A DNA stretch of 64,000 nucleotides from an uncultured Omnitrophica bacterium. Its GTDB lineage: Bacteria; Omnitrophota; Gorgyraeia; JACQQV01. The stretch is taken from the NCBI GenBank assembly GCA_947085655.1, contig CAMTXH010000019.1, positions 3,827 to 67,826 on the forward strand. The letters run 5' to 3'. Position 1 is the first letter of the stretch. Each line of letters starts with the position of its first letter. The notes beneath the pieces were generated by a model. That model made no database searches. It was not told the DNA's origin and saw only the letters and a list, made by a program, of their open reading frames with translations. Shown here piece after piece: positions 20,080-60,284 of this stretch. The translations under genes and the position numbers were made by a program.

Positions 20080-20084
20080 CGGTC

Positions 20085-26527
<6,443 letters not shown>

Positions 26528-42816: not shown

Positions 42817-42845
42817 TTGACAGGGATAAGGGGGGATGGTATACT
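42817..42845 (+). promoter_or_regulatory. near-consensus sigma70 promoter TTGACA-17-TATACT upstream of the giant-protein cluster
   Basis: TTGACA at 42817-42822, 17-nt spacer, TATACT at 42840-42845. The track ORF start at 42836 lies inside this promoter, so the real start is downstream. Confidence 0.6.
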
Positions 42846-42925: not shown

Positions 42926-45900
42926 ATGTCCCGCAAGTTTTTCCTGTTCTTGGCTCTTCCGCTAATTGTCTCGTTAAGTTTCCCCGCTGTTGTTTATTCC
43001 AAGCCAACCACTCATTTAAAGACCCCCTCTGCCAGAGATGGCGGGGTGCACCAGGAACTCGCCTGGATTTTGGGGGCGGACGTTTCTCCTGCCCAGGCCT
43101 CTCAGTTGGCGGCCGGAGCGAAGGAACTGGTCAGTACTGCTTTTGACGAAAACCGTGCCTTTGTCACAGTTGGGGCAAGCGATAAGGAAATCGCAAAGCA
43201 GGTGGATGCCTATGCCAGGGCGTATCATGCGCGGACCGGTCGGCGGTTCAGCGTGGCTGGGACAGAGGTCTTTACCAATTTCGGCAATAATGTGAAAGAG
43301 ATAAGCGGAGAAATCGGAAAACTTGCCAGGAGCTGGCGGGAGCGGGCCGGAAAAGGGTTTGGCCGGGACAAACGCAACGAGGATGGGACACCCGATTACC
43401 ATGAAGTCAATATTAAAGATGCCCTTGCAGAAAGACTTGCAAGGGCTTCTTCTTTTATTCAGGAAACATTGGCAAGCGGGGAAGGAACCGTCTATGCCAA
43501 TACAGCAAAGCGTCTTTCAGAAGAGACGCGCATTGTTTTAGTCTTGGATGAAGAGGGAATCCCAACGCTTCTTTCCGTCTATGCCAATACAGCAAAGCGT
43601 CTTTCAGAAGAGACGCGCATTGTTTTAGTCTTGGATGAAGAGGGAATCCCAACGCTTCTTTCCAATGGTGTTGAAGGAACACCCGAACATCAGGCGCTCG
43701 TCTCCTATGCAGGACGTCACCGCTATGCCGGATGGAAGGGCGGAGATACCACGACGCCGAACCGTGCTCGTTCGATTTACTTGAGTCTGGTTCAGGTTGA
43801 GGAACTGATGAAGCGGGCCGATAAGGAAACACTGGGGTCTCTCCTTTACCATCACGACAGGGACCTTCAGAACGGAAAGCATGAAGATCCGTCACCGGCT
43901 GCGGCTGAGCGGGTGAACAGCGTCCTTCAGGAGATTTTCACCGCCTATCGTGAAAAATATCTGGCGAAAGTCGAAGCAGAACACAAGACAAAACTCCAAA
44001 GGGTGACCACAACGGTGGTCAGTCTGGATGTTGCGACCTGGCTTGGGGGCGCCACCCGGATTCCGGATGAGGTGGTTGCGTTTGCGGAGAACGAGCTTAA
44101 GAACGAAATGGCTGCTGGGACCATCACCGCCTTTGTCGTGAAAGCAAGGGGAAAGGACCTGGATATTCAGGCAAACCACCAAAAAGGTTCGGAAAGTCCA
44201 ATCATTCAAAAAATCCTCACTGACCTCATGGTTCGGACCCTTGTTCAAGCGGTTTCTCCATCCTCAGAGACAAGGGAGGAAGTGCACCAAACCGCTAGAT
44301 CGTACGTTAGTTACCGACCTGCCGAGATGACCTATACGGAACGGGGGGCAGAACCGATTTTGATTGCGAAGGCGATTGACGCAGGACCCGGCTTCTTCAA
44401 CAAAGCCCTTTGGAATATTTTCTCGCATCCTGATCTCCAGTCAACGACCACGATTGACGCTTTTGCCGCTCCAGGATTCCGCTATGTCCTTTCAAGCGTT
44501 GAAGACCTGAAGGCAGGAAAGAAAAATCCGAGAACCCTTGTCTTCACCACACCCAAAGACCGGGATCTATTGCAGTCCTTTGCTTCAAACCCAGACGCTT
44601 GGGTCATTACCGAGGTCTATACCACTGTCGATACTTTGACCGGCGGGAAGATTCCGACGGACGAACCGATCGCAACCGTGTCGTATCAGGTGGTTGAAAA
44701 TGCCAAGGGAGAAAAGTCGCTCCTTAATCCCAACGCGATTATCCGGATGCAGTCCGGTTCGCCTGCGGTGGGAGAAGCGACCAACGCCATCTTCAGACCG
44801 CAGATTTCAATCGGCGGGCCGAACGGAGAATATAACGTTGCCGTTTTTCCGGTGAGTGACGAAGAGGCGCGCACTGCAGCGTATCAGCCGGGGATGGCGA
44901 GAGTTGCGGCTTACGGCTATCAATCCTCCGAGGAAAAACCAGGGTCTCCGATCTTCGGCAGAATTCCTGAGGACCCGGTTACGAATAAGCAGATTGTCTA
45001 TGACCAGGTTCCAAGAAGTTCTGCGGCAAGACTGGTGCGTGAAAAATCGGCGCTTCTTGCCAAACTCATGAATGACCACGGGGAGTTCGACCCTTACGTG
45101 GTGGCAAGCGTTGCCGAAGCGCGTGCCGAGAAGGCCAAGGAAGCGAACTTAAGCCGCTTTGAAAAATTGCCTGGATTGGCCAAGGAGGATGATGTCATGG
45201 CCGCCTCCCGGAATCCACTCGAAGGACACTTTACCGTCTCACTCATCAAAATCGATACGGGTGGGGATATTGGTCACCAGGGGGTGCCGACGGAATACCG
45301 TGTCGTGACCGAGGCCTCTCTTGCCGCAGCCCGTGAAGCATCAAAAGGCCAACTCTTTTCCGACGCCCACTTTGGCTGGGCCGGAGACGACAATCAGATT
45401 AACATGGTTCACCGGCATGGCGTTGATAACGACACAATTCACAGCTTTGATATTCAGGTCTTCTGGCGGCAGGTTTGGGCAGCCACAGCGGCCGGCCACA
45501 AATGGTACGGCCGCGGCCAGGATTTGGTGGGCGAAGCCATTAAAAAAGGAGATGTCGAAATCCGCGCAGGACTCAATGATGAATTCATCGAAGCGCTCGG
45601 GAAACAACTCTCCGGGGAAAAATCGAAATATTTCGCAAAGGTCAAAGCCGCCTACGAGACCTGGAAGCAGAAAACAGGAGGACAGGAGGTCGGGAAGCCG
45701 TATTCGGGGAATGTCCAGGCGATGGGTCCCGGTCTTTCTGAACTCGTTGTCAAAGCGGGGCAGCAGGTCGGGAAACTCGCGATGGACAAAACCGGCCCCG
45801 GCGCTTTCAACATTCCTTTTTGGTGGGCAGCGAACCAGGCGCTCGAAAGGGGCGTCTACGACGATCTCATCTTTGAGATTTGGGACACCGAAAAACACGA

Positions 45901-47236
45901 AAGAATTTTTGTCAGTCTCAAAGAAGAAAGACCTTTGGCCAGACAACTCCTCGGTGCTGTAAACCGCTTTAACATTAAGCGGATCTGGACTAGAAAGCCC
46001 GGCCATAAATGGGTCCGTTCCAAGCCGAAAGAGTCGATCAGTGATCTGCCGATCGCTTCTCTTTCCACCGAGCGGCTTTCCATCATCTCCGGCGGGGAAT
46101 ATCTTGGGAAGGACGATCCGGTTGCGCTCGCCCATATTGAGTTCATGGACATTGTCTTTGAATTCATGCGGGATCACTTCTACATGAACCAGGGAGATGA
46201 ACGGGGATCGCACTACATGATGCCGCTTGCCGAAGCGCATGAGGATGCGGTGGCGACGCTCCGGAGCCGTGCGGTCCAAACCGCCGAGCGGTATGTCATT
46301 ACGAGTGACGGGAAATATGCCGGCAGAGAGGATGTTTACAAAGAACCGGCCTATGAGACAGCGCGGAGACGTCAGGTGGAATACAACGAACTCATCTGGG
46401 CGGTTCAGGGTTCTGAATGGCCGCCGGTCGGCGTCGGACCTGCACAGATTGAGGCCTCCTATCCTGCTGCACGGCTCATGGAGGAACTTGAAGCGGAGGA
46501 TTCGGAGTACCGGATCGAGCGGACGCTCACCTTGGCGGAAAGTCATGCCGCTTCCAAGTGGGCCGATCTTTTCCCTGCGATCGGCCGTTCCGTGAGCCCG
46601 AAAGTGGCACGGATGGCGGCAGATGGAGGAAATAAAGTCATTTTGATTAACGCTGAGACCTTCATCGAAGGACCGGATGGGCTTTTGGCGATCCAGAAGT
46701 ATTTCAGGGATCTTGGATTCGAGACTCCGGAAGAGGCCTTGAAGAGCCCGGTGAAGATTTACATCAATGTTCCGAAAGACGTCAAACCGAGCGAAGGAAA
46801 CGAGATCGTTGACCGGCTTCTCCGGACGGCCAAGGAGAAAACAGACGGTGCCGTGACACTCACCCGGGATTGGTTTGCGGGTGTTGTCTCGGGTACATCT
46901 GCAGATGATGTGCAAGGGAAAATTTTGAATGTGGAGGCTGGCATCGATGTTGTAATCGGGCCTACCGAATGGGCACATGGCCTCCAAAGAATTACAGGGC
47001 CGACTCTCGTGACGGTTGCTTTGGACCCTTCGCCTGATCAGGAAGCCCGTTCCGGCGCAGCGGCGTTTCTGATGGCGATTGAGGCGCTTGCCAATAATAA
47101 GGTCATCGATGAAGCTCTTGCACAGAAACTCTCTGTTCAGATTGATCAGGGCGCCTTGAGCATCATCGCAAGCCCGGTAAGCCCAAAGATTGAAACGGAT
47201 CTCACGGCCTACCGCGAAGCGATGCGCAAGGTGTAA
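42926..47236 (+). CDS. giant secreted protein A (1436 aa) with embedded fructose-1,6-bisphosphate aldolase/phosphatase-like domain
   Basis: ATG 42926 preceded by AAGGAGGA SD. Signal-peptide-like MSRKFFLFLALPLIVSLSFPAVVYS. Residues encoded at about 45227-46500 carry FBPA/P-family motifs in order (IDTGGDIGHQG, WAGDDNQINMVHRHG, GRGQDL, SGNVQAMGPG, DKTGPGAFNIP, GEYLGKDDP, ERGSHYMMP). Confidence 0.8.
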   Translation: MSRKFFLFLALPLIVSLSFPAVVYSKPTTHLKTPSARDGGVHQELAWILGADVSPAQASQLAAGAKELVSTAFDENRAFVTVGASDKEIAKQVDAYARAYHARTGRRFSVAGTEVFTNFGNNVKEISGEIGKLARSWRERAGKGFGRDKRNEDGTPDYHEVNIKDALAERLARASSFIQETLASGEGTVYANTAKRLSEETRIVLVLDEEGIPTLLSVYANTAKRLSEETRIVLVLDEEGIPTLLSNGVEGTPEHQALVSYAGRHRYAGWKGGDTTTPNRARSIYLSLVQVEELMKRADKETLGSLLYHHDRDLQNGKHEDPSPAAAERVNSVLQEIFTAYREKYLAKVEAEHKTKLQRVTTTVVSLDVATWLGGATRIPDEVVAFAENELKNEMAAGTITAFVVKARGKDLDIQANHQKGSESPIIQKILTDLMVRTLVQAVSPSSETREEVHQTARSYVSYRPAEMTYTERGAEPILIAKAIDAGPGFFNKALWNIFSHPDLQSTTTIDAFAAPGFRYVLSSVEDLKAGKKNPRTLVFTTPKDRDLLQSFASNPDAWVITEVYTTVDTLTGGKIPTDEPIATVSYQVVENAKGEKSLLNPNAIIRMQSGSPAVGEATNAIFRPQISIGGPNGEYNVAVFPVSDEEARTAAYQPGMARVAAYGYQSSEEKPGSPIFGRIPEDPVTNKQIVYDQVPRSSAARLVREKSALLAKLMNDHGEFDPYVVASVAEARAEKAKEANLSRFEKLPGLAKEDDVMAASRNPLEGHFTVSLIKIDTGGDIGHQGVPTEYRVVTEASLAAAREASKGQLFSDAHFGWAGDDNQINMVHRHGVDNDTIHSFDIQVFWRQVWAATAAGHKWYGRGQDLVGEAIKKGDVEIRAGLNDEFIEALGKQLSGEKSKYFAKVKAAYETWKQKTGGQEVGKPYSGNVQAMGPGLSELVVKAGQQVGKLAMDKTGPGAFNIPFWWAANQALERGVYDDLIFEIWDTEKHERIFVSLKEERPLARQLLGAVNRFNIKRIWTRKPGHKWVRSKPKESISDLPIASLSTERLSIISGGEYLGKDDPVALAHIEFMDIVFEFMRDHFYMNQGDERGSHYMMPLAEAHEDAVATLRSRAVQTAERYVITSDGKYAGREDVYKEPAYETARRRQVEYNELIWAVQGSEWPPVGVGPAQIEASYPAARLMEELEAEDSEYRIERTLTLAESHAASKWADLFPAIGRSVSPKVARMAADGGNKVILINAETFIEGPDGLLAIQKYFRDLGFETPEEALKSPVKIYINVPKDVKPSEGNEIVDRLLRTAKEKTDGAVTLTRDWFAGVVSGTSADDVQGKILNVEAGIDVVIGPTEWAHGLQRITGPTLVTVALDPSPDQEARSGAAAFLMAIEALANNKVIDEALAQKLSVQIDQGALSIIASPVSPKIETDLTAYREAMRKV
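43490..43663 (+). repeat. perfect 87-bp tandem duplication inside giant gene A
   Basis: Two identical 87-nt units (43490-43576 and 43577-43663) encoding VYANTAKRLSEETRIVLVLDEEGIPTLLS twice. Confidence 0.85.
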
Positions 47237-48210
47237 TGATTACGCAATACAGCACGCAGTACACCTCCATGGTGATCAAGATGAGGGGACGGTTTCCCTG
47301 GCCTGCCGACCAGGGCAGGCTAAACCGTCCCCTCGTTTCTTTAGTGGTTTCCCTTCCTTTAATAGGGACTCTTGTCTTCCCCCCTTCTATCTATGCCGAT
47401 ATCCCCGCTCAATTACGGGCGCCGATGACCTCCAGAGATGAAGGCGTAGCCCAAGCCATTGCAAGAGACCTCTCACTCCTTTCAGGAAATCGGGCGGTAC
47501 AGGATGGCGGCAACCGGACGGAGCAGGAGGGTGACTTAGCGTCGGAGGCACTGGATGCCGAAACCCTTGGGAAGATGGTGATACGTGCCATTCCGGAGGT
47601 TGTCCCGCCGTTATCATCCGACATTCTTCAAACAACATTCCAGGGAACGATTGCCGTCTACGAAGAATCGCTCGACAACCTCACCATTGCCACCATGGTG
47701 GAGCGGTTTGCGCGTCAATTAAACAGTGCACGCTCTAAAATCGGATTCGTTCTGGTTTCCACATCAGGGAAATCCGAATCTGAGATTGCCGCGAAAGTCT
47801 ATCGGGATTCGAAGGGTTTGGTCAATCTGAGCGGTACTTTCCGGGCAACACTTGTGGAGGGCGAAGTCAACGCATTGAATCCTTTGTCGGTTGTGGCGGC
47901 ATTGGAAGAAAAAAGACTCCCGCCTCTTGTGGAACTCGTCGCACCTTTGGAAATCGTGGTCGCTTACCGAAGACCTGGCATCGAACTGTATGGATGGCTC
48001 GTATCCCGTAACCCGCAGGAAGGGGAGGCGGGCATTGCGAACGGCGCACCGGCCCTTCGGGAACTGGTCGAGCTTTTGGGGTTGGGGGAGAAGGAACGGG
48101 CGAGTCTCCTTCGGGATGGAGGCCGATCGTTCATGGTTAACATTCAGCGCTATGAAGAAGATTTCGAAGCGTTCGATTTCTCCTATCGTGAAGGCCGCAA
48201 AAGCGATTAG
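47236..48210 (+). CDS. signal-peptide protein B (324 aa) consisting of the module shared with the C-terminus of giant C
   Basis: TAATG overlap with the A stop. Hydrophobic segment LVSLVVSLPLIGTLVF. Residues from about 95 to the end align with the last 230 aa of ORF C (for example FDFSYREGRKSD versus LDRSYRENRGL). Confidence 0.75.
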   Translation: MITQYSTQYTSMVIKMRGRFPWPADQGRLNRPLVSLVVSLPLIGTLVFPPSIYADIPAQLRAPMTSRDEGVAQAIARDLSLLSGNRAVQDGGNRTEQEGDLASEALDAETLGKMVIRAIPEVVPPLSSDILQTTFQGTIAVYEESLDNLTIATMVERFARQLNSARSKIGFVLVSTSGKSESEIAAKVYRDSKGLVNLSGTFRATLVEGEVNALNPLSVVAALEEKRLPPLVELVAPLEIVVAYRRPGIELYGWLVSRNPQEGEAGIANGAPALRELVELLGLGEKERASLLRDGGRSFMVNIQRYEEDFEAFDFSYREGRKSD

Positions 48211-48688
48211 CAGACGAATAAGTTGAAGCAAAAGTTAGATTTTGTCCCTTGACAATCAAGGGATTAAATGATATCCTTAATGTAAAGAAATTGAAATTTT
48301 TGTGTATACATCTTGTTTATTTGTAAAAGGTTGTAACTTAACTGGAAATAGCATCTTTCAAAATTTGGTCTTTCTTTACTCAAGGTTTGTTCACTAGATA
48401 AACGCAAACCATTCGTGAGGATGGGACTGCAAAGCCTTGGACCCTGCACTAATTTTCGGGGAAAATTAGTGCTGGCAGCCGGGTTGCCTAAAGGAACAGC
48501 GGCCCGGTTTTTTTATTCCCTCGGCCTGAATGGCCTCGGGATCAATTTAGTCAGCAGACTTACGTTCGCTTTGCTCCGTAAGTCTGGACTTCATTGTTCG
48601 GCGTGGGGGCTCCGGCTTCCTTCTTCCCAAGGCAAGAGGCGGAGCAATTACAGGAGCCCTCACGAACCGATCCGGAGGTGAAGAAAAG
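48211..48688 (+). promoter_or_regulatory. long structured 5' leader/intergenic region upstream of giant gene C
   Basis: AT-rich at 48280-48400. Hairpin TCCCTTG-ACAAT-CAAGGGA (48245-48263) overlapping a TTGACA-17-TATCCT promoter-like pair. Perfect 10-bp stem CAGACTTACG/CGTAAGTCTG (48554-48585). Stem plus T7 run at about 48475-48512 (terminator-like). Confidence 0.45.
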
Positions 48689-51600
48689 ATGAAGAAATCC
48701 GGTTTTTGGTTCAAACTTACTGCCTGTCTTATTCTTCAGATTTTTCTGTTCTTCACAGTCAGTCCCATCCCTGCCTCTGCCTTACCCACGCCAACCCAAT
48801 CCCATTTAAGGTCCATTTCAACCAGAAGCTCCGATGGAGGGGTTCGACTTCTTCAACAGGAACTTTTGCGGCCGGCGGGTGTTCCAGCGCCAGACGCTCT
48901 GCAGCCCATTGACGTTTACATCGCTGCAACTTTCGATCACGCCACAGGGCCAACCTCTTTCGAGGGGCGTGTCCGTCGTTTGGTTTCGGCGGTGGCTCAA
49001 GGTGAGTACGAAGGAGTTGATCCGCAAACGCTCGTTCCTCTTTTTCTGAAGGAGTTAACACCGGATCAAGCGGATCTTCATGAATCGATCGGGGGAGAAT
49101 GGGAGCGTCTAAACGGCACTTGTCAGACGTGCGGTGTGAATTCCTTTTATGAGTTACCTTCGACGGGCAGGGTGTCTTCCCAAGACCTCCGCAGAGTTCC
49201 GAGGGAAGTTTTGGGAAGTCTTGTTGCGGCTGTTCATATCGCCCAATCCGGGCGTCTTTCCTTCCACCCCCGAACAAACGAAATCCTCTATTCCGCTTTT
49301 GATCTTGGTTTGGTCTACGGGATGTCTGTTCACCAACTTCCAAAAGCAGAAAAAGCGTTACGAAGTTTGGTTCCAAATGCAGAGCGGGGACTGATTGTCC
49401 ATCTTGCCGCTCTTGATCCGGAGGGTCGGGGGGGTCATTTCGCGGCGGTTAAAACAATCGGGGAAAACGAAGTCATTGTCTTGGATAAAGGGAGAGAAAT
49501 CACCCTCCCGCTTCCGGAATTTCTCAGGCAATGGTCCGGGTATTTCCTCACTTATTCTCAAACCTCCTCAGCGAAGGTTGTCCCGCAGGAAGAGGCAAAG
49601 GAAGTCATGGGATGCTGCGGGACCTACGGCGAGATTATCTCTAAGGGGGCATACCATCAGCAGCCGGATGTGGATATTGCGCAGTTAAGCAGCATTGCGG
49701 CGCTTATCGAGCAGCACGGCCTTCAGGCACTTGTGAAAAACAATCAGGAAAGACTCTTTTTTGCGGGAGAGGAGGATGTCCAAATTGACGCTGTGGGGCG
49801 GTCGGGAAGTATTTCCTTCATTGAATATACCGGAAGGGATGAAGAACCTGTCCAACGTCATCCCCACACCCTGAATGCCGACGAAATCAAAAAGGTTAAA
49901 GGTTATGTCCACCTTCGTGAGAAAGCAGCCGCTCAACTCGAGGAAGTGCATCGGCTGAACGAACAAGTCGAGAAAGCGAAGTCAAAATATGGAAAGGGCA
50001 AAGACAGCAATCAGTCCTGGGAGGAGTGGCGGAAAAACCGCCATCACGGTTGGAAGGAGTGGCAGAGAGGGGCCGGGGAAGCAAAAGAGGCCAAAAAGAA
50101 ATACCAGCAATATCGGAATGATTATTTGGAGGAGAGGGAAAAGGTATTGGGTCAATTTATCGCGAACATTTACCCTGGGCAGCGGACCCGGTTTCAAAAT
50201 TATCTTCTGGAGTCGTATTTAGGCGGCCGAGAACAAATACAGAAATTTTTCAGCCAATTTTACCATTTGAAGCGTATTGTAAATCTTGAATTCATCTTCA
50301 ACAATCCGTCCGTTCGCGCGGAAATCCGCTCTTTGGCGGACCGGCTCCGTGTCTTGATCGCGGAAGAAGAGAGGTTATACAAGAAGTTTGTCGAGGACGG
50401 GTTATTACACCAACAGGATCTGGAGGCTTACAAAGGACGGATGGCACTCCTCAAAGATATGGAATGGTTCCTCACTGAAGATGTCCTCCGGCACATCGAT
50501 GAGATCATGAGTTTGGGGGGCATCGAAGAACGTGATTTACCGGTCTCTTCGCACGCGTTTCAGGCCCTTCGTGCAGTGAATACGGCCCTTGTGGCGATTG
50601 ACAAGCGACTTGAAACACGGGGGCGGGATTCGCTGGGCGTTGCCATTTCTCTTAGCGTGCCTGATGTGAAAACTTACCATCGGCTGAGAGACGCCCTTCA
50701 TAATAACGGATTTCGGTCAGAGTATGAGAGACGGCGGGAACGGGGAACAATGAATTTGGACAATCTCGCAATCCGCATGCAACACAGCCATAAGCCCAAT
50801 GGGGACATCGATGCAGACAGACCAGTCACCATCACTTTTGTTTACAAGGTAGCCGAAGCGGTGGGGAAACTGGGGGACAATGCAAGGGCAATCCGGAAGT
50901 CTATTACCGAGGATGAAGTGTTTAAGCGGGTGATCCGGGCAGATCTTGAAAACATTGTGGTCACGGCCCAATCCCGTTGGGCCTCTGCCGGAGGAATCAA
51001 CATTCCGAATGCCCATCCTGTGGACAACCGGGGGATTTATCTCATCGATGGCAGACAAAGAGAACAGATATGGGAACTTTCGGCAGATCAAATCCCAAAG
51101 TATGGTAGAAATGGAACCCTTTTTGTGGTTCTAAACGGCGATATTGATAATTATAACAGCGAGCGGGAAGGAAAACCGAATCTCACAAAGGTCTATGAGG
51201 AAGACCAGCTCAATACCGTACCCCGTCATATTCATCCGGAGGCCAGTTCAGACACCAAAAGGATTCCGCTTCGGATCGAACATTATTTGGCGCGCGGCCA
51301 TGACCTGAAAGAAGCATTCCGCCTTGCGGTGAACGATTTCGGCGGCTCTTTTGCGATCCAGATGCAGAGTGACCTGGAGCCGGGAAAAATTTTTCTTGCG
51401 CAGCACGGAGAAGGGCAAGCGCTTTATGTCGGAATTTCGGAAGATGGGTTTCATTCCTCTTCCGAACAATACGGGTTTGTTGAGTCGACTCAGCGTTACG
51501 TCGAGATGCAGGCAGGGCAAATCATCATTTTGGACCAGGCAAGGAAACCGGGTGTTGAGCAAATCGAGGCGTATGACTTTGATGGAACGCCGATTAAATT

Positions 51601-54076
51601 TACCGATGCCAATCTTCAAACCACCTCTGTGACAAGCCGCGATATCAATATCCGCGGTTACAACCATTTCCTTGAGAAAGAAATCCACGAGGCCCCCCAG
51701 ATGTGGGAGGATACCATCAGCGGGAAGACGGGCATCGATGTGGATCAAAGCGGAGTTAAAACGCCGTGGGTATCCCTCTCCCCCTTTGACGAATTACCGG
51801 TGAGAATTCTTCAAAGACTCGCGGACCAAGAAAATCCTACCCGAAAAATCTATGTCACCGGTATGGGAACGGCGGATGCGGCAGGTTCGGTGGTAGCAGG
51901 GCAGATCCGGGATTATTTGAGACTCGTCGGTCACGATGAAATCGAGGTGGAAGATATTATTGCGACCGAGTTAAGCGGATTCAAGTTACGGGAAAACATG
52001 AGCGACGTATTGATCGTGGCAGTCAGTCAATCCGGAAAGACGACGGATACCAATACGGCGATCAGTCATGCCAAAAAGAGAGGGGCCGGGGTTCTTGCGA
52101 TTGTGAATACACGCGATTCGAAATTGACGACTTTTGCGGATGGGGTCCTTTATACCGGGACAGGCCGTGACATCGAAATCGCAGTGGCTTCCACCAAGGC
52201 CTATTATGCACAGGTCGGCGCAGGGGCCCTTTACGCGATGGCACTTGCCGAGGGTCTTCTCCAAATGGACAGAGAACGGATTCGGGAGATGCCGGGTAGC
52301 CGCGAACGGACGGCCCAGTGGAACGAACTGGCCAAACGAGAGAAGGAGTTACAGAGGGTGATGTTGGAGGACATCAAAGAAATGCATTTGATGCCGGCAA
52401 AGATAACAACTTTTCTAAACGCCGTTCAAACTCTGGAAGAGGCATACCAAAAGGCGAAAAGAAAAGGTGCAACAGGAGTCCGACGCCATCCTCTTGTGGC
52501 AGCTGCCCATAACTGGCCGCTTCGGAAACTGGAGTGGAAAGTTTTGGGAAGCGGGCCGAATTATCATTCTGCAAAAGAGGGACGGATCAAACTCTCCGAG
52601 TTAACGTACAGCAGCCTGCCGTTTGACCACGTCGAGAATTACAAGCATATTGATTTTTCCGCAGAACCATGGGTGATCGCAAACATTGCGAATGTCTCGG
52701 GGTGGGAGAATACCTTCCATTCCGACATCGAATCCGAAGTCACCAAGATGCTTTCGCACAATGCGGCCTTAACGCTTATTGTTGCGGAGGACGATGCCCG
52801 TTTTAACTCTCTTGAGCAGGAATTCCTGACGGTGGAAGGAAAAAGGGAAAAAGGCCCCATTGATATCATCCGTATTCCCAAAACCAGCGAACGCTTTGCA
52901 CCTGTCCTTTCGACATTGGCGATGCATCTTTTGGCTTATCATGTAGCGCTTGCCCTGAACGAAAGAGCGAATGCGGTAATGAAAGTTCATGACGAGATTT
53001 TATATCAGACAGCGAGACTGAGAAACCATTACGGAAAGAAACAGGCCTCGAGTGATAACATCAGCGGTCTTATTTTGAAAAACAAGACTTTCCGGAAAGT
53101 GGCCAGAGAAAGAATCGGCGAACTCTTCCCGCAATTTAGAGAGGGTATCTTCAACAAAGGATTCGGCTCGGATCGGACCTTTTCGACGATGATTTTGTTG
53201 ATGGCCGCCGCTGGACATATTTCACTGGAACAGACAAACCAATTTTTGGGGAAGGATTATACGCCCGACACGTTTCTGGAAGCGCTTCCGGACTTTTTGA
53301 TGCACCAGCGGATGCGTCTTACCCGGACGGTGGATTCGGTTCTTCACCAGGCGAAGTTCGTGACTGTTGGAACCAAGCGCCAGACGGGATCGGAGTCAGC
53401 GGCGGCTGGGAGAGACGGCGGCGTGAGGCAGACCGCAGCAGTACTGGAAAGCGCAATCCAAGGTCTTTCGCCAGAAGTTTCTCTGTCCCAGTCGGTCCTT
53501 CAGTCCACCGTTCAAGGGACCGTTATAGTTTATGACGATGCGCTGGATAATTTGTCTATTGCCAAAAAGGTTGAACAACTTGCAAGCCAATTGAGGAATG
53601 CCGGCTCATCCATAGGATTCAGTCTGATTTCCCGTTCGGGGAAGGGGGCTGCGGGGATTGCCGAAGAGGTCTATCGGCATTCCAACGGCCTGGTTGACCT
53701 CTGGGGTCTGTTTCAAACATCTCTCGCCGAGGGTGAGGTCAATGTGCTTGACCCCAGGGCAGTGGATACGGCGCTGCGGCAGAGAGGGCTGGTGCCTCTT
53801 GAGCTCGTTGCCCCGCGGGAGATCGTTGATCTTTACAAAGAAAACAAAATCCAACTCTATGCCTGGCTGGTCTCCGGGAATCCAAAAGAGGGTGAGCCGG
53901 GCGTAGTTTACGGTGCAGAAGCCCTTCACCAAATGGTTGAGATCTTTGGATGGAACCCTGCCGACACCGAAATCCTTCTGGTTGAAGGCGGTCTGGAATT
54001 TACAGCGACGTTAGAGCGCTTTGAAGGGGACATCGAAGCCCTGGACCGCTCCTATCGTGAAAATCGCGGGTTATAA
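48689..54076 (+). CDS. giant secreted protein C (1795 aa) with embedded GlmS-like amidotransferase+2xSIS unit and C-terminal B-like module
   Basis: GGAGGTG SD. Signal-peptide-like MKKSGFWFKLTACLILQIFLFFTVSPIPASA. The region encoded at about 50560-53000 parallels glucosamine-6-P synthase end to end (RGRDSLGVAI, QSRWASAGG..NAHP, VVLNGDIDNY, YVTGMGTADAAG, VSQSGKTTDT, AVASTKAYYAQ, LLAYHVALAL), but the position of the N-terminal catalytic Cys is internal and occupied by non-Cys residues. Confidence 0.8.
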   Translation: MKKSGFWFKLTACLILQIFLFFTVSPIPASALPTPTQSHLRSISTRSSDGGVRLLQQELLRPAGVPAPDALQPIDVYIAATFDHATGPTSFEGRVRRLVSAVAQGEYEGVDPQTLVPLFLKELTPDQADLHESIGGEWERLNGTCQTCGVNSFYELPSTGRVSSQDLRRVPREVLGSLVAAVHIAQSGRLSFHPRTNEILYSAFDLGLVYGMSVHQLPKAEKALRSLVPNAERGLIVHLAALDPEGRGGHFAAVKTIGENEVIVLDKGREITLPLPEFLRQWSGYFLTYSQTSSAKVVPQEEAKEVMGCCGTYGEIISKGAYHQQPDVDIAQLSSIAALIEQHGLQALVKNNQERLFFAGEEDVQIDAVGRSGSISFIEYTGRDEEPVQRHPHTLNADEIKKVKGYVHLREKAAAQLEEVHRLNEQVEKAKSKYGKGKDSNQSWEEWRKNRHHGWKEWQRGAGEAKEAKKKYQQYRNDYLEEREKVLGQFIANIYPGQRTRFQNYLLESYLGGREQIQKFFSQFYHLKRIVNLEFIFNNPSVRAEIRSLADRLRVLIAEEERLYKKFVEDGLLHQQDLEAYKGRMALLKDMEWFLTEDVLRHIDEIMSLGGIEERDLPVSSHAFQALRAVNTALVAIDKRLETRGRDSLGVAISLSVPDVKTYHRLRDALHNNGFRSEYERRRERGTMNLDNLAIRMQHSHKPNGDIDADRPVTITFVYKVAEAVGKLGDNARAIRKSITEDEVFKRVIRADLENIVVTAQSRWASAGGINIPNAHPVDNRGIYLIDGRQREQIWELSADQIPKYGRNGTLFVVLNGDIDNYNSEREGKPNLTKVYEEDQLNTVPRHIHPEASSDTKRIPLRIEHYLARGHDLKEAFRLAVNDFGGSFAIQMQSDLEPGKIFLAQHGEGQALYVGISEDGFHSSSEQYGFVESTQRYVEMQAGQIIILDQARKPGVEQIEAYDFDGTPIKFTDANLQTTSVTSRDINIRGYNHFLEKEIHEAPQMWEDTISGKTGIDVDQSGVKTPWVSLSPFDELPVRILQRLADQENPTRKIYVTGMGTADAAGSVVAGQIRDYLRLVGHDEIEVEDIIATELSGFKLRENMSDVLIVAVSQSGKTTDTNTAISHAKKRGAGVLAIVNTRDSKLTTFADGVLYTGTGRDIEIAVASTKAYYAQVGAGALYAMALAEGLLQMDRERIREMPGSRERTAQWNELAKREKELQRVMLEDIKEMHLMPAKITTFLNAVQTLEEAYQKAKRKGATGVRRHPLVAAAHNWPLRKLEWKVLGSGPNYHSAKEGRIKLSELTYSSLPFDHVENYKHIDFSAEPWVIANIANVSGWENTFHSDIESEVTKMLSHNAALTLIVAEDDARFNSLEQEFLTVEGKREKGPIDIIRIPKTSERFAPVLSTLAMHLLAYHVALALNERANAVMKVHDEILYQTARLRNHYGKKQASSDNISGLILKNKTFRKVARERIGELFPQFREGIFNKGFGSDRTFSTMILLMAAAGHISLEQTNQFLGKDYTPDTFLEALPDFLMHQRMRLTRTVDSVLHQAKFVTVGTKRQTGSESAAAGRDGGVRQTAAVLESAIQGLSPEVSLSQSVLQSTVQGTVIVYDDALDNLSIAKKVEQLASQLRNAGSSIGFSLISRSGKGAAGIAEEVYRHSNGLVDLWGLFQTSLAEGEVNVLDPRAVDTALRQRGLVPLELVAPREIVDLYKENKIQLYAWLVSGNPKEGEPGVVYGAEALHQMVEIFGWNPADTEILLVEGGLEFTATLERFEGDIEALDRSYRENRGL

Positions 54077-57000
54077 TGTTGATGAAAAAGAAAAGATGGC
54101 TTAGTTTTTCTGCCTGGGTGACTTTCGAGCTCTTCTTTTTTACCCAGATTGTTTCGGCAGGGAACATTGTTGTGCCCTCTCCGCGCCATTCCCACCTCCG
54201 CGCCCCGAGTTTGAAAGGGACTGCCCAGGACGGGAGCCGTCGTGATGTCGGCGTTAGTCAATTTCTTACGGAGCTCCGGGGTGTCAAAGACGGCGGCACA
54301 CAAAATCTTGAGAGTTTTCCGTCTCTTTTACGAGATTATCTGAAGAGCGTAGCGGGCGTGATCGAGGGTCCCGACTGGTTAAGACAGACGCATGCCCTCT
54401 TTACCTCTGTCTATCCCCGGACTTTTCTTGCGGACTTGGAAAAGATGAGACAGGTGCCGGAACCCACCGGCGGCACCGTGTATTCGCGGCTTGATACACC
54501 CCTTTATTACGACGCAGAGCGCGGATTTGTCGTCCTGGTGGCATCCTGGGAGCCGGGTCAATCCACCCATATCCATAATCACCTCACCGAAAATGAAGAG
54601 CCGGAGGAAGGGATCATCGGTGTGCTTGAGGGCGAGGCAGAGGTGGTCCATTTTAGACGGGAGGGGAACCGGATTATTGAAGCGGGCCGGTTCATTTTGA
54701 AGGAAGGGCAGGCCGCGATTGTGCGTCAGGAAGCGGGGCAAATCCATCGGGTCAGGAATGCAGGAAACACCCGCCTTGTCATGCTCGATACCTACCGTCC
54801 CCGGCTTACCCGGACCGATGTCTTCCTGCCGCTTGAGGATCATTCGGAAACCTCCCTTTTGGGAGGGAAAAAGCGTGAAGCGTATGTCGTCGAGCCGGTC
54901 CGAATTCCTGCAGGGAAACAGAATCTTTTACTTCCGAAACTTTTGGTTGAGGCGGGCTTCGCTGTTCCGCAGATTGATGAGTTTCTGCGCAGCCCGATCA
55001 CCGTCAAAGCAACCTTGCAGGCCTTAAATGAAGCGAAGGCGCTGATTGCGGGGAGGGATGGAGGGGATAAACGGCAGCCGGCCAAGGAATCCACCGTCGA
55101 AATCGCAGGGGCGACATTTTTGCATCTTTCGGCCGAAAGACCGGTTGAGACGGTGCTGATTCCGGAGCCGATTGATCCGGCGGTCATCCGCCTGATTCAG
55201 GAAAGGGACGATGTCTCTGCCTTTATCCTGACTCCCGGGTCTGAAGAGGTTCGGACCCCCGAGGGATGGAAGGTTTTCTCGCAAGACCAGCTCTTAGAGA
55301 CCGTGCGCCAAACCAATCCTACCGCAATCATCGGCTATACCAATCTTCTCTATAATGCCCAATTGATGGATCTGGCCCCCCGCTTGGAAGGGATTTATCT
55401 TTTCTCGACGGGCCGTGAAAATGTGAGCCATCTGGAAGCGCGCCGGCGCGGAATCTTCGCCACGTTTGTCCCGGGGCCTTTAACGGAGATGGTGACCGAG
55501 CGGAATCACACATTTGGCCTGAATTTTGTCTTTGATTATTTAGGGAGCGTTCTCTATCAATCCCGTCCCGGTTGGATGACGGCCGAGGAGGTTTTGTCTT
55601 CTACGGTCAAAGAGAATCCGGAATCGGTTGCGCAGTGGATATGGGGGGAGCTTCTGCGAAGAAGTCAGCGGCTTGATCGGCAGGTTGACCATGTGAAACA
55701 AGGAAAATTCAGGCGCACAACCGGGGTCAGTGAAAACGCAACGGTTTATTCCGAACAATTGGCTCACAATCCGGAAATCGGAATAGAGACCACCCTCGGT
55801 CTTATCGGCCTTGGGGAAGTCGGCAAACGTCTTGCCGAGATTGCAAAGGTCTTCGAACTCAAAGAAGTCCGTTACCATGTGCCTCCTAAAGAACGGGATA
55901 AAAAATTAGAAAAAGAGCTTGGGTTGGTTTATGTAACATCTGTCAAGGACATTTTAACATCAAACTATGTGATCCGTGTCCCGGGCGCACCCATCCATTT
56001 AACCTCGGTAACCGATTTTAGGCAGGAGATTGTGGATCCTGAAAGAATATGGACCGATCCGGACAAGGCGCAGAATCTCCTGAAGCAGTCTCTTTTTGGA
56101 AGGAGAGCCCACATTGCAGGTCTGGGGCAGATCGGAAGAGAAACGGCCAGACGAGCCATTGCTCTCGGGATGGATGTGGATGCCATCGAGATTCGACCGG
56201 ATCTTGAGGCGATTGAAGCGCTGAATCAATTCCAGAGTAAGTTTGCCGAGCGCCACGGACGACCTAAAAGGCCAATCCGGTTGGTGAAGGATAAAGAAGC
56301 CTTCTTTAAAGAAGCAAACCCGGGAGACCTCTTCTTTTATCAGTTTAATTATACTCCTGAAGTCCATCATTGGGTCGATGCAGAGGCCCTGGCACTCCTC
56401 GGCGACACGCCGGTCATTCATATGAACACTGCCCGGGGGAAATTGGTGGATACAAAGGTAATGGAGGAATATCTCGATACCCATCCCCATTCAAAGTATG
56501 GAACAGACGTTTTGGAAAATGAGACCGGAGAAACAGAAAAAGGTCTCGCAGAGCGGCCTAATGTCGTGGTCACTCCTCATTCGGCAAGTGCCGATCCCCG
56601 GGTTCGCGCCTATGTTCAGAAAGTGGCGGTCGTTGATAACTTCTTCGCTTTCTTGGATGGGAAGATACCGGCCAACCCGATGCCCGAGGTCCCGGTTCAT
56701 GAAGTGGTGGCCCGGCGGATGTTTCGGGAGGCGGTCAAAAGCGCCGACGCGTATGAGGCGGTCAGGCGGCATGTTGCTTACGATCCTTCTTCCCAGACCC
56801 TCACCGTTCAGGGGCGCCCCTATGATCTCGCCGGTATTCAAAATATCTATGTTGTGGGATACGGCAAGGCCTCGGGGGAGATGGCCGAGGCGCTTACGGA
56901 AATTTTGGGCGAGCGGATTACATCCGGCGTTATCACTGTGGCCGGGCATGAGCAGAAGAAGCGGTTTAACGGGAAGATTAAACCGATTACTGTTTATGCC

Positions 57001-60255: not shown

Positions 60256-60284
60256 TCAGAACCAACATTCTGAATCCAATTTAA

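What the first reader, a model, noticed from the sequence alone, without database searches (positions are those of the whole stretch)
45227..46500. Fructose-1,6-bisphosphate aldolase/phosphatase-like domain embedded in the C-terminal half of secreted giant protein A
The segment HFTVSLIKIDTGGDIGHQGVPTE...WAGDDNQINMVHRHG...YGRGQDLVGEAI...YSGNVQAMGPGLSELV...MDKTGPGAFNIPFWW...GGEYLGKDDPVALAHIEF...ERGSHYMMPLAE follows, in order, the signature blocks I recall for the archaeal-type bifunctional FBP aldolase/phosphatase family (IKADIGS..GHH; HVGDDLQLIM.HTRG; AAGQDL; SGNVRGLGPG; DKTEPGAFNLP; GKYVGKDDP; MRGSHYGPLMP). The metal-binding Asp/His positions and the GKDDP Lys region appear conserved, so the domain might be catalytically competent. 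This enzyme is normally a free-standing cytoplasmic protein of about 380 aa. Here it is one domain of a 1436-aa signal-peptide protein.
Basis: partly seen in the sequence, partly recalled or inferred. Interest (0 to 1): 0.75.

Follow-up and report, generated by a model that had tools for sequence, protein, structure and literature searches.

The report
Exported giant protein with tandem FBPase domains

Summary
Gene A (42926-47236, +) matches Pfam FBPase_3 (PF01950) at E=6e-74. An AlphaFold model of the region matches only solved FBP aldolase/phosphatase (FBPA/P) structures (TM 0.68-0.79).

D1 (44000-45106) is a full-length FBPA/P fold that has lost almost every catalytic residue. D2 also has a ~50-residue insertion and a 5-residue deletion at active-site loops.

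This D1+D2 module is not unique. It occurs as a free, signal-less 841-905-aa protein in about 40 bacterial MAG species (Acidobacteriota, Poribacteria, Binatia and others).

In this organism (Omnitrophota by GyrA) and a few relatives, the module sits inside a longer protein. That protein has a canonical Sec signal peptide, a conserved leader, and clade-specific N- and C-terminal domains.

These long versions have 0-2 cysteines in 1,359-6,041 residues. Neighbouring genes carry about 1% Cys, which independently supports export.

Genes B, C and D share the leader and embed GlmS-like, glycerate-kinase and dehydrogenase domains. A GEMM-I (c-di-GMP-type) riboswitch precedes C. I could not test where the enzyme acts or what it acts on.

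The parts
42817..42845 (+). Promoter-like site (TTGACA, 17 nt, TATACT, with TG) upstream of gene A
   Evidence: Consensus scan, 11 of 12 matches. This is a consensus match only. It overlaps the upstream ATG at 42836, which argues that translation starts at 42926.
42926..47236 (+). Gene A: 1436-aa protein with the order signal peptide, leader, N-domain, D1, D2, C-domain
   Evidence: ORF. A 1436-aa gene call sits in the same 90% cluster on a 73.5-kb NCBI contig (P0040). P0001 is 98% identical and P0002 is 52% identical, both in syntenic loci.
42926..43000 (+). Predicted Sec signal peptide MSRKFFLFLALPLIVSLSFPAVVYS
   Evidence: This is the only hydrophobic segment of the protein (Kyte-Doolittle 2.43-2.5). 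It has a basic n-region and V-Y-S at positions -3 to -1, read by eye. No SignalP-type tool was available.
43001..43048 (+). Conserved post-signal leader KPTTHLKTPSARDGGV
   Evidence: The same pattern of signal peptide, (H/Q)L(R/K)xP/S, then [DE][GSEV]G[VITA] occurs in A, B, C and D. It occurs in no other open frame of at least 150 aa in the window. Variants (LRP...D/E-S/G-G) occur in distant orthologues.
43031..44011 (+). N-domain (~327 aa), clade-specific, function unknown
43488..43663 (+). Exact 87-bp tandem duplication (29 aa x2) inside the N-domain
   Evidence: TRF reports period 87, 2.0 copies, 100% identity. One copy is absent from the 98%-identical P0001.
44000..45106 (+). D1: full-length FBPA/P-fold pseudoenzyme domain
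   Evidence: PF01950 scores E=5.6e-29 on this part alone. A canonical-family HMM covers positions 2-341. H18, D52, Q95, D132, K133, Y229, K232, D233, D234, R266 and S268 are all replaced (H269 position = Tyr), here and in every family member.
45107..45220 (+). D1-D2 linker
   Evidence: Conserved with the free-standing tandem proteins.
45221..46510 (+).
   Evidence: PF01950 scores E=9.3e-47, with matching PDB hits and fold matches. Catalytic residues in 1436-aa numbering, with Thermoproteus neutrophilus numbers in brackets: D777(D11), H784(H18), D821/D822(D52/53), Q865/D866(Q95/D96), D954/K955(D132/K133), Y1059(Y229), K1062(K232), D1063/D1064(D233/234), R1093/S1095/H1096(R266/S268/H269).
45542..45694 (+). 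~50-residue helical insertion in D2, between the GQDL and SGNV motifs
   Evidence: It splits the PDB and HMM matches. It is present in all tandem-family members. The model predicts it as helical.
46622..46630 (+). DGG motif in the linker before the C-domain
   Evidence: Conserved in P0002. DGG occurs 10 times in A-D against 1.7 expected, with 0 of 2000 shuffles reaching that count. It is not conserved in distant orthologues.
46631..47233 (+). C-domain (~200 aa), clade-specific, function unknown
   Evidence: Conserved in P0002, P0171, P0169, P0168 and L050. It has no Pfam match and no PDB-sequence match. It is not related to the B/C module (hhalign probability 0.4%).
47236..48210 (+). Gene B: 324 aa, the same signal peptide and leader plus a module 52% identical to the C-terminus of C. 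Its start overlaps the stop of A (ATGA).
48393..48491 (+). GEMM-I clan (c-di-GMP-I type) riboswitch aptamer in the 5' leader of gene C
   Evidence: Rfam RF01051 scores 49.5 bits against a gathering score of 35, E=1e-6. A homologous element in the syntenic locus L002 at 10206-10280 scores 61.2 bits against 59 for RF03167. A promoter-like site lies at 48249-48277.
48689..54076 (+). Gene C: 1795 aa with signal peptide, leader, a weak C39-like region, a GlmS-like domain (glutaminase Cys1 replaced by Val, SIS motifs kept) and a B-like C-terminal module
54076..60255 (+). Gene D: 2059 aa with signal peptide, leader, a weak below-threshold cupin match, D-2-hydroxyacid dehydrogenase, glycerate kinase (DUF4147+MOFRL) and a weak below-threshold methyltransferase match. 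A terminator-like hairpin follows at 60283-60309.

Best explanation
Gene A encodes a Sec-exported, multi-domain protein of an Omnitrophota bacterium. Its core is a tandem FBP aldolase/phosphatase module.

Shown:
- D2 is a genuine member of the FBPA/P fold and sequence family.
- D2 keeps every Mg-ligand, the Schiff-base lysine and its partner tyrosine.
- D1 is a paralogous copy that has lost almost all of these residues. The AlphaFold model predicts with good overall confidence (pTM 0.76) that it packs against D2.
- The D1+D2 module is inherited from a widespread bacterial family of free, signal-less 841-905-aa enzymes.
- This lineage added a cleavable-looking signal peptide, a conserved leader, an N-domain and a C-domain.
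- The resulting proteins are almost free of cysteine.

Inferred:
- D2 still carries out FBPA/P chemistry. That means Mg-dependent hydrolysis of fructose-1,6-bisphosphate to F6P, and probably Schiff-base aldol condensation of DHAP and GAP.
- D1 acts as the non-catalytic partner that replaces a second subunit of the homo-oligomer.
- The protein works outside the cytoplasm, in the periplasm, at the cell surface or at a host or prey interface. It acts on sugar phosphates available there.
- It is part of a set of co-located exported enzyme-bearing proteins (B, C, D), at least some of which are under cyclic-dinucleotide control.
For: Family and fold:
- Pfam scores E=6e-74 for the whole protein, and D1 and D2 are each significant on their own.
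- PDB sequence hits are FBPA/P chains only.
- The AF2 model's top seven Foldseek matches are all FBPA/P structures.

Catalytic residues:
- D11, H18, D52, D53, Q95, D96, D132, K133, Y229, K232, D233, D234, S268 and H269 are invariant in D2. This holds for all ~40 free tandem proteins and all exported long orthologues, down to about 25-30% identity. R266 is kept in all but four exported orthologues.
- The same residues are lost in every D1.
- D2 is the most conserved part of the protein against P0002: 66-68%, compared with 41-48% for the N- and C-domains.

Export:
- A single N-terminal hydrophobic segment ends in an AXA-like site in A, B, C, D and P0002.
- Free tandem homologues have no such segment.
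- Cysteine exclusion is strong. A, B and D have 0 Cys in 3819 aa, against 1.02% in 22 other genes of the window (P about 1e-17).
- Exported FBPA/P giants elsewhere have 0-2 Cys in 1359-6041 aa, whereas every free homologue has at least one.
- The same depletion is seen in neighbouring signal-bearing PEPCK and GlmS-like giants.

Conservation of the whole architecture:
- The N-domain occurs only in 9 proteins among 1.84 billion representatives, and every full-length hit scanned with Pfam carries FBPase_3.
- The C-domain is conserved in the same orthologues.

Context:
- GyrA places the organism in Omnitrophota.
- A 2026 preprint reports that 94% of long Omnitrophota proteins carry a signal peptide or TM helices, and describes 'multi-enzyme metabolic' long proteins (bioRxiv 10.64898/2026.06.07.730766).
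- A GEMM-I riboswitch precedes gene C, here and in L002.
Against: - The substrates of FBPA/P (FBP, DHAP, GAP) are cytoplasmic metabolites, and no extracytoplasmic source is demonstrated.
- The signal peptide was judged by eye and by hydropathy only, because no SignalP or DeepTMHMM was available.
- The same window encodes an ordinary cytoplasmic GTP-PEPCK (9057-10838, 10 Cys). The cell is therefore probably gluconeogenic and needs an FBPase. I could not check whether gene A is the only one in the genome.
- The two active-site loops flanking the catalytic residues are remodelled: a 50-aa insertion after GQDL and a 5-aa deletion after GKDDPV. Substrate or reaction specificity may therefore differ from the archaeal enzyme.
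- The score against NCBI's equivalog model is below its cut-off (238 against 520).
- The C-terminal-loop tyrosine (Y348 in Sulfolobus numbering, from memory) aligns only with a 1-2 residue shift.
- No enzyme of the tandem family has been characterised, as far as I could find.
Confidence: 0.55

Rival explanations
1. Gene A is a housekeeping gluconeogenic enzyme tethered to the inner membrane. The N-terminal hydrophobic segment would be an uncleaved anchor, or a targeting signal for an internal PVC-type compartment. The D1-D2 module would face a cytoplasm-like space and serve as the cell's normal FBPase/aldolase.
For: - The substrates are cytoplasmic.
- A cytoplasmic PEPCK, Icd, Mdh and SucC lie in the same window, which implies gluconeogenic flux needing an FBPase.
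- The catalytic residues are under strong purifying selection.
- Basic residues (K, K, R) also follow the hydrophobic segment, so the charge bias is modest.
- The 2026 preprint discusses membrane-anchored cytoplasmic domains for about half of the long Omnitrophota proteins.
Against: - AXA-type cleavage motifs (VYS, IYA, ASA, VSA, VSA) follow 15-residue h-regions in five proteins.
- Near-total cysteine exclusion is specific to the signal-bearing versions. The free cytoplasmic homologues and neighbouring cytoplasmic genes have normal Cys content.
- No second TM segment is present.
Confidence: 0.22
2. A-D are polyproteins. They would be exported or membrane-targeted and then cut at the recurrent (R)DGG sites by the papain-like (C39-like) region of protein C. 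This would release separate modules, such as the D1-D2 enzyme and the C-domain.
For: - DGG occurs 10 times in A-D against 1.7 expected, with 0 of 2000 shuffles reaching that count.
- The sites lie in linkers at domain borders and just after the leader.
- Both DGG sites of A are conserved in P0002, and the motif recurs in the L002 homologues.
- Peptidase_C39 enzymes cleave after Gly-Gly (established knowledge), and C residues 211-293 give a C39 hit at E=5e-4.
Against: - The C39 hit is below Pfam's gathering score (20.4 against 22 bits). It was not seen in the L002 homologue at E of 1e-3 or better.
- There is no DGG between the N-domain, D1 and D2.
- The site before the C-domain is only 'A-A/S-D' in more distant orthologues.
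- There is no direct evidence of cleavage.
Confidence: 0.1
3. The FBPA/P-like module is a non-catalytic structural or ligand-binding module, for example a sugar-phosphate or glycan binder on a surface protein. It would keep the fold but not the reaction.
For: - D1 shows the fold can persist as a pseudoenzyme.
- The GlmS-like domain of neighbour C has lost its catalytic Cys.
- The active-site loops of D2 are remodelled.
Against: About 15 catalytic positions of D2 are invariant across exported orthologues that are only 25-30% identical overall, while the same positions drifted freely in D1.
Confidence: 0.08
4. The long ORF is an assembly or gene-calling artefact that joins unrelated genes.
For: The exact 87-bp duplication at 43488-43663 is absent from a 98%-identical assembly, so some local assembly uncertainty exists.
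Against: The uninterrupted ORF with the same domain order recurs in independent assemblies from NCBI, JGI and other sources: P0001, P0040, P0002, P0168, P0169, P0171, P0173, P0175 and L050.
Confidence: 0.01

Closest known systems
[quoted passage not shown]
   Same: D2 has the same fold (TM 0.68-0.79). It shares the sequence motifs IKxDxGG..GH, GDD, GQD, SGN, DK..PG.FN, Y.GKDDP and RGSH, with all metal ligands and the Schiff-base Lys.
   Different: - Identity is only 28-33%.
- D2 has a ~50-aa helical insertion after GQDL, a 5-aa deletion after GKDDPV and one extra residue before the Tyr.
- D2 is fused behind a dead paralogue (D1) and embedded in a 1436-aa signal-peptide protein. The archaeal enzyme is a free ~360-400-aa cytoplasmic homo-oligomer.
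- D2 scores below NCBIfam's equivalog cut-off.
Uncharacterised bacterial tandem FBPA/P proteins of 841-905 aa, such as the 845-aa ORF at L004:9062-11599 in a Poribacteria chromosome (OZ242351.1). Also found in MAGs of Acidobacteriota, Binatia, Thermodesulfobacteriota/Syntrophaceae, Latescibacterota, Gemmataceae, Aminicenantes and Nitrospinota.
   Same: They have the same D1(pseudo)-linker-D2(catalytic) order, the same insertion and deletion in D2, and the same pattern of lost and kept residues. Identity to the window over D2 plus linker is 37-43%.
   Different: They have no signal peptide, no N-domain or C-domain, and normal cysteine content (0.1-1.1%). They are presumably cytoplasmic. I found no paper that describes this tandem form; a 2025 review treats bacterial FBPA/P as a few restricted transfers from archaea (PMC12525153).
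Long 'multi-enzyme metabolic' proteins of Omnitrophota (bioRxiv 10.64898/2026.06.07.730766; related: West-Roberts et al. 2023, bioRxiv 10.1101/2023.11.21.568195)
   Same: The phylum is the same. Ordinary metabolic Pfam domains are strung in long polypeptides that mostly carry a signal peptide or TM helices, and their location and purpose are unresolved.
   Different: That catalogue concerns much longer proteins. Its listed domains are sugar-nucleotide and glycogen enzymes, kinases and methyltransferases. The text contains no mention of aldolase, fructose or glycerate. The proteins here are 1.4-2.1 kaa, signal-peptide-only, share a specific leader motif, and carry gluconeogenesis-related domains.
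Enzyme/pseudoenzyme tandem duplications in general (for example the active and inactive halves of pitrilysin/insulin-degrading enzyme)
   Same: One copy keeps the active site while the duplicated copy keeps only the fold and serves as a partner.
   Different: The fold and chemistry are unrelated. The IDE hits have TM of only ~0.1 and are not meaningful.

Membership tests
FBP aldolase/phosphatase (PF01950 / class V FBPase) | Significant match to the family HMM above the curated threshold | tested here: met
   PF01950 scores 249.7 bits against a cut-off of 25. D2 alone scores 160.4 bits and D1 alone 101.9 bits.
FBP aldolase/phosphatase (PF01950 / class V FBPase) | NCBIfam equivalog NF041126 (same function assumed) score of at least 520 bits | tested here: not met
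   The score is 238 bits. By NCBI's criterion this is a family member but not an equivalog.
FBP aldolase/phosphatase (PF01950 / class V FBPase) | Four-layer FBPA/P fold as in 3r1m and 3t2b | tested here: met
   The top seven Foldseek hits are all FBPA/P, with probability 1.00 and target TM 0.68-0.79. Model pLDDT in D2 is mostly 82-97, with dips in the insertion and flexible loops.
FBP aldolase/phosphatase (PF01950 / class V FBPase) | Mg2+ ligands D11, H18, D52, D53, Q95, D132, D233, D234 (T. neutrophilus numbering; residue roles from memory of Du et al. 2011 and Fushinobu et al. 2011) | tested here: met
   All are present in D2, as D777, H784, D821, D822, Q865, D954, D1063 and D1064 of the 1436-aa protein. 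In D1 only the D11 and D53 positions survive.
FBP aldolase/phosphatase (PF01950 / class V FBPase) | Schiff-base Lys232 and Tyr229 in the Y-x-G-K-D-D-P loop | tested here: met
   D2 has GGEYLGKDDP (Y1059, K1062). The PDB Y229F variant 3t2g aligns at this Tyr. Both residues are absent from D1.
FBP aldolase/phosphatase (PF01950 / class V FBPase) | C-terminal-loop Tyr (Y348 in S. tokodaii, from memory) needed for the aldolase half-reaction | tested here: inconclusive
   A conserved E-x-S/A-Y-P tyrosine exists in all tandem-type D2 domains, but it aligns 1-2 residues off the canonical E-Y-T-T.
FBP aldolase/phosphatase (PF01950 / class V FBPase) | Free-standing ~360-400-aa cytoplasmic homo-oligomer | tested here: not met
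   The domains are tandem and lie inside a 1436-aa protein with a signal peptide.
FBP aldolase/phosphatase (PF01950 / class V FBPase) | FBP phosphatase and DHAP+GAP aldolase activity | not testable with these tools
   This requires an enzyme assay.
Bacterial tandem (D1 pseudo + D2 active) FBPA/P subfamily, defined here | D1-linker-D2 order, a ~50-aa insertion after GQDL, a 5-aa deletion after GKDDPV, and catalytic residues lost in D1 but kept in D2 | tested here: met
   The window protein shows every feature.
Sec-exported protein | N-terminal tripartite signal peptide with a signal-peptidase I site | tested here: inconclusive
   A basic n-region, a 15-residue h-region and V-Y-S at -3 to -1 were read by eye and by hydropathy. 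No dedicated predictor was available. Cysteine exclusion gives independent support.
Omnitrophota multi-enzyme long proteins (2026 preprint) | Omnitrophota origin, several unrelated metabolic Pfam domains in one long signal-peptide or TM-bearing polypeptide | tested here: met
   GyrA's best named hits are Omnitrophota, up to 80% identity. Genes C and D carry several enzyme domains. Gene A carries only FBPase_3 twice, plus two unknown domains. All are shorter than the proteins that paper catalogues.
Double-glycine (Peptidase C39) processing system | A C39 peptidase domain above threshold and GG-type cleavage sites | tested here: inconclusive
   DGG is enriched. The C39 match scores 20.4 bits against a gathering score of 22.

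The most novel reading that the evidence does not exclude
Some Omnitrophota and related uncultured bacteria export a toolkit of catalytically competent central-carbon enzymes. The toolkit would include tandem FBPA/P here, and PEPCK, triose-phosphate isomerase, HAD phosphatase, glycerate kinase and GlmS-like isomerase in neighbours and relatives. The enzymes are made as cysteine-free Sec substrates marked by a shared leader (signal peptide, LRxP, D-G/S-G). Part of the set is under cyclic-dinucleotide riboswitch control. They would run gluconeogenic or sugar-phosphate chemistry outside the bacterium's own cytoplasm. The site could be a host or prey cell these ultra-small, host-dependent bacteria attach to, or an enlarged periplasm-like compartment. 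This would amount to an 'outsourced' or effector metabolism.
Probability: 0.2. Interest if true: 0.9.

Novelty: new variant of a known kind. Interest (0 to 1): 0.62.

Why it matters
FBPA/P is regarded as an ancestral, mainly archaeal, cytoplasmic gluconeogenic enzyme (Say and Fuchs 2010, from memory; PMC12525153). Three points here extend that picture.

1. A widespread bacterial form exists that is a fixed enzyme-pseudoenzyme tandem with remodelled active-site loops. I found no description of it in the literature I could search. It is a natural test case for how the aldolase/phosphatase switch depends on oligomer partners.

2. In Omnitrophota and a few other uncultured lineages, this enzyme has an intact active site but sits in signal-peptide-bearing, cysteine-free long proteins. 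Other central-metabolic enzymes with the same leader sit next to it. If they really act outside the cytoplasm, that bears directly on how these host-dependent nanobacteria feed or manipulate partners.

3. The case offers small (1.4-2 kaa), expressible examples for the open question raised by the 2026 Omnitrophota preprint. That question is what 'metabolic' domains are doing in exported giant proteins.

Tried and rejected
- The word-indexed homologue search with the full 1466-aa protein returned only two proteins, and canonical FBPA/Ps were missed. Searching D2 alone was needed.
- I first thought A, B and C shared one C-terminal module ending in 'YRE'. A profile-profile comparison rejected this for A (probability 0.4%). 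Only B and C share one (52% identity).
- The C-domain PDB profile search found nothing. I used the last job on the N-domain instead.
- The afdb50 fold library was unavailable.
- Model coordinates are not exposed, so I could not check whether the D1-D2 interface matches a canonical subunit interface.
- Literature searches for the tandem form or for PF01950 returned nothing relevant.
- No riboswitch was found upstream of gene A, even at E of 1 or better.
- Cluster look-ups gave no organism names. Taxonomy came from GyrA homologues instead.
- The window's own species is not among the GTDB representative genomes returned. I therefore could not test whether the genome has another FBPase.

Full report
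**1. The observation**

- Pfam FBPase_3 (PF01950) matches at E=6.3e-74 and 249.7 bits, against a cut-off of 25.
- NCBIfam's FBP_aldo_phos model matches at 238 bits, below its equivalog cut-off of 520.
- phmmer against PDB sequences returns only the four known FBP aldolase/phosphatase (FBPA/P) sequences. The match is split in two pieces, residues 799-901 and 955-1134 of the 1466-aa frame. This reveals a ~50-residue insertion.
- A promoter-like TTGACA-17-TATACT site at 42817-42845 overlaps the first ATG. An NCBI gene call of 1436 aa (P0040) sits in the same 90% cluster, on a 73.5-kb contig.

**2. Two domains, not one**

I scanned four pieces of the protein separately.

- 43991-45220 hits FBPase_3 at E=5.6e-29, covering profile positions 1-305.
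- 45221-46420 hits at E=9.3e-47.
- The first 355 and last 271 residues hit nothing relevant.

An HMM I built from 360-400-aa canonical sequences gives the same picture. D1 covers residues 389-757 (HMM 2-341). D2 covers 799-902 plus 942-1187.

I aligned both domains to canonical enzymes and tabulated key positions. Residue roles are from my memory of Du et al. 2011 and Fushinobu et al. 2011. Numbering is anchored on the PDB alignment, including the Y229F entry 3t2g.

- D2 keeps K9, D11, H18, D52, D53, Y91, Q95, D96, D132, K133, Y229, K232, D233, D234, R266, S268 and H269.
- D1 keeps only the D11 and D53 positions.

D2 differs from canonical enzymes in three ways:
- a ~50-aa insertion between GQDL and SGNV;
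- one extra residue before the Tyr (GGEY);
- a 5-residue deletion after GKDDPV.

A conserved E-x-S-Y-P tyrosine near the C-terminus may or may not correspond to the canonical E-Y-T-T tyrosine.

**3. Fold**

An AlphaFold2 model of residues 386-1262 used a 32-sequence alignment. It has mean pLDDT 75.6 and pTM 0.76. D2 blocks are mostly 82-97, apart from the insertion and a few flexible loops, and D1 blocks are 60-87.

Foldseek against the PDB puts seven FBPA/P entries first (3r1m, 3t2c, 1umg, 3t2b, 3t2d, 3t2g, 3t2e). They score probability 1.00, E 3e-20 to 5e-18, and target TM 0.68-0.79. Everything after them has TM of about 0.1.

**4. Where the module comes from**

Searching D2 alone found a subfamily at 40-45% identity (P0003-P0008), well above canonical enzymes at 23-30%. 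These hits are fragments or split calls of longer genes.

A scan of one genome per GTDB species returned 80 loci.
- In L004-L045 the match lies in a single ORF of 841-905 aa. A few loci are contig-truncated, L032 is 1041 aa, and L040 is 1725 aa.
- Every one of these has D1 plus D2 with the insertion.
- Every one shows the same kept and lost residue pattern.
- The organisms are MAGs of Acidobacteriota, Poribacteria, Binatia, Thermodesulfobacteriota/Syntrophaceae, Latescibacterota, Gemmataceae, Aminicenantes and Nitrospinota.
- The free forms have no hydrophobic N-terminus.

The duplication and the inactivation of D1 are therefore old. The tandem enzyme is a widespread but, as far as I could find, undescribed bacterial form. 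A 2025 review treats bacterial FBPA/P as a few restricted transfers from archaea (PMC12525153).

**5. What is special here**

GyrA from the window has its best named hits, up to 80% identity, exclusively in Candidatus Omnitrophota.

The window protein adds four elements to D1-D2.

(a) A signal-peptide-like N-terminus. This is the only hydrophobic segment in the protein.

(b) A leader, KPTTHLKTPSARDGGV.

(c) A ~327-aa N-domain.
- An exhaustive phmmer search over 1.84 billion representatives finds it in only 9 proteins, of which the full-length ones are 1359-6041 aa.
- All five full-length hits I scanned contain FBPase_3.
- All have a signal peptide followed by an LRP...D/E-S/G-G leader.

(d) A ~200-aa C-domain conserved in the same orthologues.

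Long versions with different accessory domains exist elsewhere:
- a MAG labelled Planctomycetales (L050, 1650 aa);
- another such MAG carrying triose-phosphate isomerase in the same protein (L047, 1750 aa);
- a chromosome labelled Elusimicrobia (L040, 1725 aa);
- P0175, which adds HAD hydrolase domains and a weak, below-threshold response-regulator match.

In all of these the catalytic positions of D2 are still intact. R266 varies in four. Against P0002, D2 is the best-conserved part of the protein at 66-68%, compared with 41-48% for the N- and C-domains.

**6. Is it really exported?**

No signal-peptide predictor was available. By eye, A, B, C, D and P0002 each have a basic n-region, an h-region of about 15 residues, and VYS, IYA, ASA, VSA and VSA respectively at positions -3 to -1.

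Cysteine content gives independent evidence.
- A, B and D contain no cysteine in 3819 residues, and C has 5 in 1795.
- 22 other genes of the window average 1.02% Cys. The probability of zero at that frequency is about 1e-17.
- Signal-bearing FBPA/P giants elsewhere have 0-2 Cys in 1359-6041 residues. One has 0 in 6041. Every free tandem homologue has at least one.
- Neighbouring signal-bearing PEPCK and GlmS-like giants are similarly depleted (0.17-0.18%). Their ordinary neighbours have 0.8-4%.

Exclusion of cysteine from exported proteins is a known pattern in bacteria that lack periplasmic disulfide machinery (general knowledge). I take this as substantial, not conclusive, support for an extracytoplasmic location.

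**7. Neighbourhood**

- Gene B (47236-48210) overlaps the stop of A. It has the same signal and leader, and a module 52% identical to the C-terminus of C.
- Gene C (48689-54076) has a GlmS-like region (NCBIfam 200 bits; SIS domain E=1e-14). The position of the catalytic Cys1 is Val, so the glutaminase half is probably dead. It also has a sub-threshold Peptidase_C39 match (20.4 against 22 bits).
- Gene D (54076-60255) carries D-2-hydroxyacid dehydrogenase and glycerate kinase (DUF4147+MOFRL), plus weak below-threshold cupin and methyltransferase matches.
- The leader pattern occurs in these four genes and in no other frame of at least 150 aa in the window.
- The order A, C-like, third giant is conserved in L001 and L002. 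In L002 the third giant carries a PLP-enzyme domain.
- A GEMM-I clan riboswitch aptamer lies at 48393-48491, between a promoter-like site and gene C (49.5 bits against 35). It has a counterpart upstream of the C homologue in L002 (61.2 bits against 59 for the c-di-GMP-I-GGC model). None precedes A.
- The motif DGG occurs 10 times in A-D against 1.7 expected, with 0 of 2000 shuffles reaching that count. It lies mostly in linkers.

**8. Interpretation**

Firm conclusions:
- D2 is a true FBPA/P-family catalytic domain.
- It belongs to an enzyme-pseudoenzyme tandem.
- The tandem was recruited into a conserved, signal-bearing, Cys-free architecture in Omnitrophota and a few other lineages.

Inferred:
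- It is catalytically active. The residue invariance argues strongly for this. The remodelled loops leave specificity open.
- It acts outside the cytoplasm.

The main rival is a membrane-tethered housekeeping FBPase. The window also encodes an ordinary cytoplasmic GTP-PEPCK with 10 Cys, so the cell probably needs an FBPase. I could not inspect the rest of the genome.

A polyprotein-processing idea (DGG sites plus a C39-like region) is compatible with either location. It rests on weak evidence.

**9. Relation to what is known**

A 2026 preprint on Omnitrophota (10.64898/2026.06.07.730766) reports 'multi-enzyme metabolic' very long proteins. It states that 94% of long proteins have a signal peptide or TM helices, and it leaves their location and function open. 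It does not mention aldolase, fructose or glycerate enzymes.

The present case is a smaller, well-defined member of that phenomenon, and a new architectural variant of the FBPA/P family. I rate it as a new variant of a known kind, with moderately high interest.

Noticed in passing
window 48393-48491 (+); L002 10206-10280: A GEMM-I clan (c-di-GMP-I type) riboswitch aptamer lies in the 5' leader of giant gene C, downstream of a promoter-like site at 48249-48277. It is conserved in the syntenic locus of a 52%-identical relative. None lies upstream of gene A.
   Followed up: partly
It is conserved in all ~45 relatives examined.
   Followed up: yes
window 42926-60255 (genes A-D); L002, L040, L047, L050; P0168-P0175: There is near-total cysteine exclusion. 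A, B and D have 0 Cys in 3819 aa, against 1.02% in other genes of the window. The same holds for all signal-bearing enzyme-containing long proteins in related loci, but not for their free cytoplasmic homologues.
   Followed up: yes
window 43001-43048, 47341-47388 region, 48782-48841 region, 54160-54290 region (N-termini of A-D): A shared post-signal leader is found only in these four genes of the window. It consists of (H/Q)L(R/K)xP/S followed a few residues later by (R)D-G/E/V-G-V and often Q-E-L. Distant orthologues have LRP...D/E-S/G-G. No known sorting signal comes to mind.
   Followed up: partly
window genes A-D, e.g. 46622-46630; C residues 49 and 1576; D residues 72, 328, 1330, 1821, 1921: The motif (R)DGG is about six-fold over-represented (10 against 1.7 expected) and sits in inter-domain linkers. 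It is conserved in the L002 homologues but not in more distant ones. It may be a processing site.
   Followed up: partly
window 43488-43663: An exact 87-bp tandem duplication (29 aa x2) lies in the N-domain of A. One copy is missing from a 98%-identical assembly (P0001). It is either a strain polymorphism or an assembly artefact.
   Followed up: partly
window 48689-54076 (gene C): The GlmS-like domain is embedded internally and has Val at the position of the catalytic N-terminal Cys, so the glutaminase is probably dead. The SIS motifs (SQSGKT, VASTKA) are kept. A sub-threshold Peptidase_C39-like region lies at residues 211-293.
   Followed up: partly
window 54076-60255 (gene D): A 2059-aa signal-bearing protein combines D-2-hydroxyacid dehydrogenase and glycerate kinase (DUF4147+MOFRL) with weak, below-threshold cupin and methyltransferase matches. 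It contains no cysteine.
   Followed up: no
window 47236-48210 (gene B) and 53402-54073 (C-terminus of C): B consists of signal, leader and a ~200-aa module that is 52% identical to the C-terminal module of C. The module's function is unknown and it has no Pfam match.
   Followed up: partly
L004-L045 (e.g. L004:9062-11599): A widespread bacterial family of free 841-905-aa tandem (pseudo + active) FBPA/P proteins occurs in Acidobacteriota, Poribacteria, Binatia, Thermodesulfobacteriota, Latescibacterota, Gemmataceae and others. I found no description of it in the literature I could search.
   Followed up: yes
L050:12877-16500; L047:1327-6579; L002:17244-19969; P0175: Related lineages embed other enzymes in signal-bearing long proteins. 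These include GTP-PEPCK (1207 aa), triose-phosphate isomerase together with FBPA/P (1750 aa), a PLP-dependent enzyme, and a HAD hydrolase next to FBPA/P.
   Followed up: partly
window 20405-24043: gyrB is interrupted by an intein (Intein_splicing/Hint between the GyrB and Toprim domains).
   Followed up: no
window ~12000-20100: This is the chromosomal origin region. rnpA, yidC, mnmG, parA and parB lie on the - strand, facing dnaA, dnaN, gyrB and gyrA on the + strand. GC skew changes sign at about 16 kb.
   Followed up: no
window 9057-10838 (-): An ordinary free-standing GTP-dependent PEPCK (592 aa, 10 Cys, no signal) is encoded here. The organism therefore probably runs gluconeogenesis in its cytoplasm.
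   Followed up: no
window 3514-5655 (-): A sulfatase-family protein has a ~260-residue N-terminal extension with no Pfam match.
   Followed up: no
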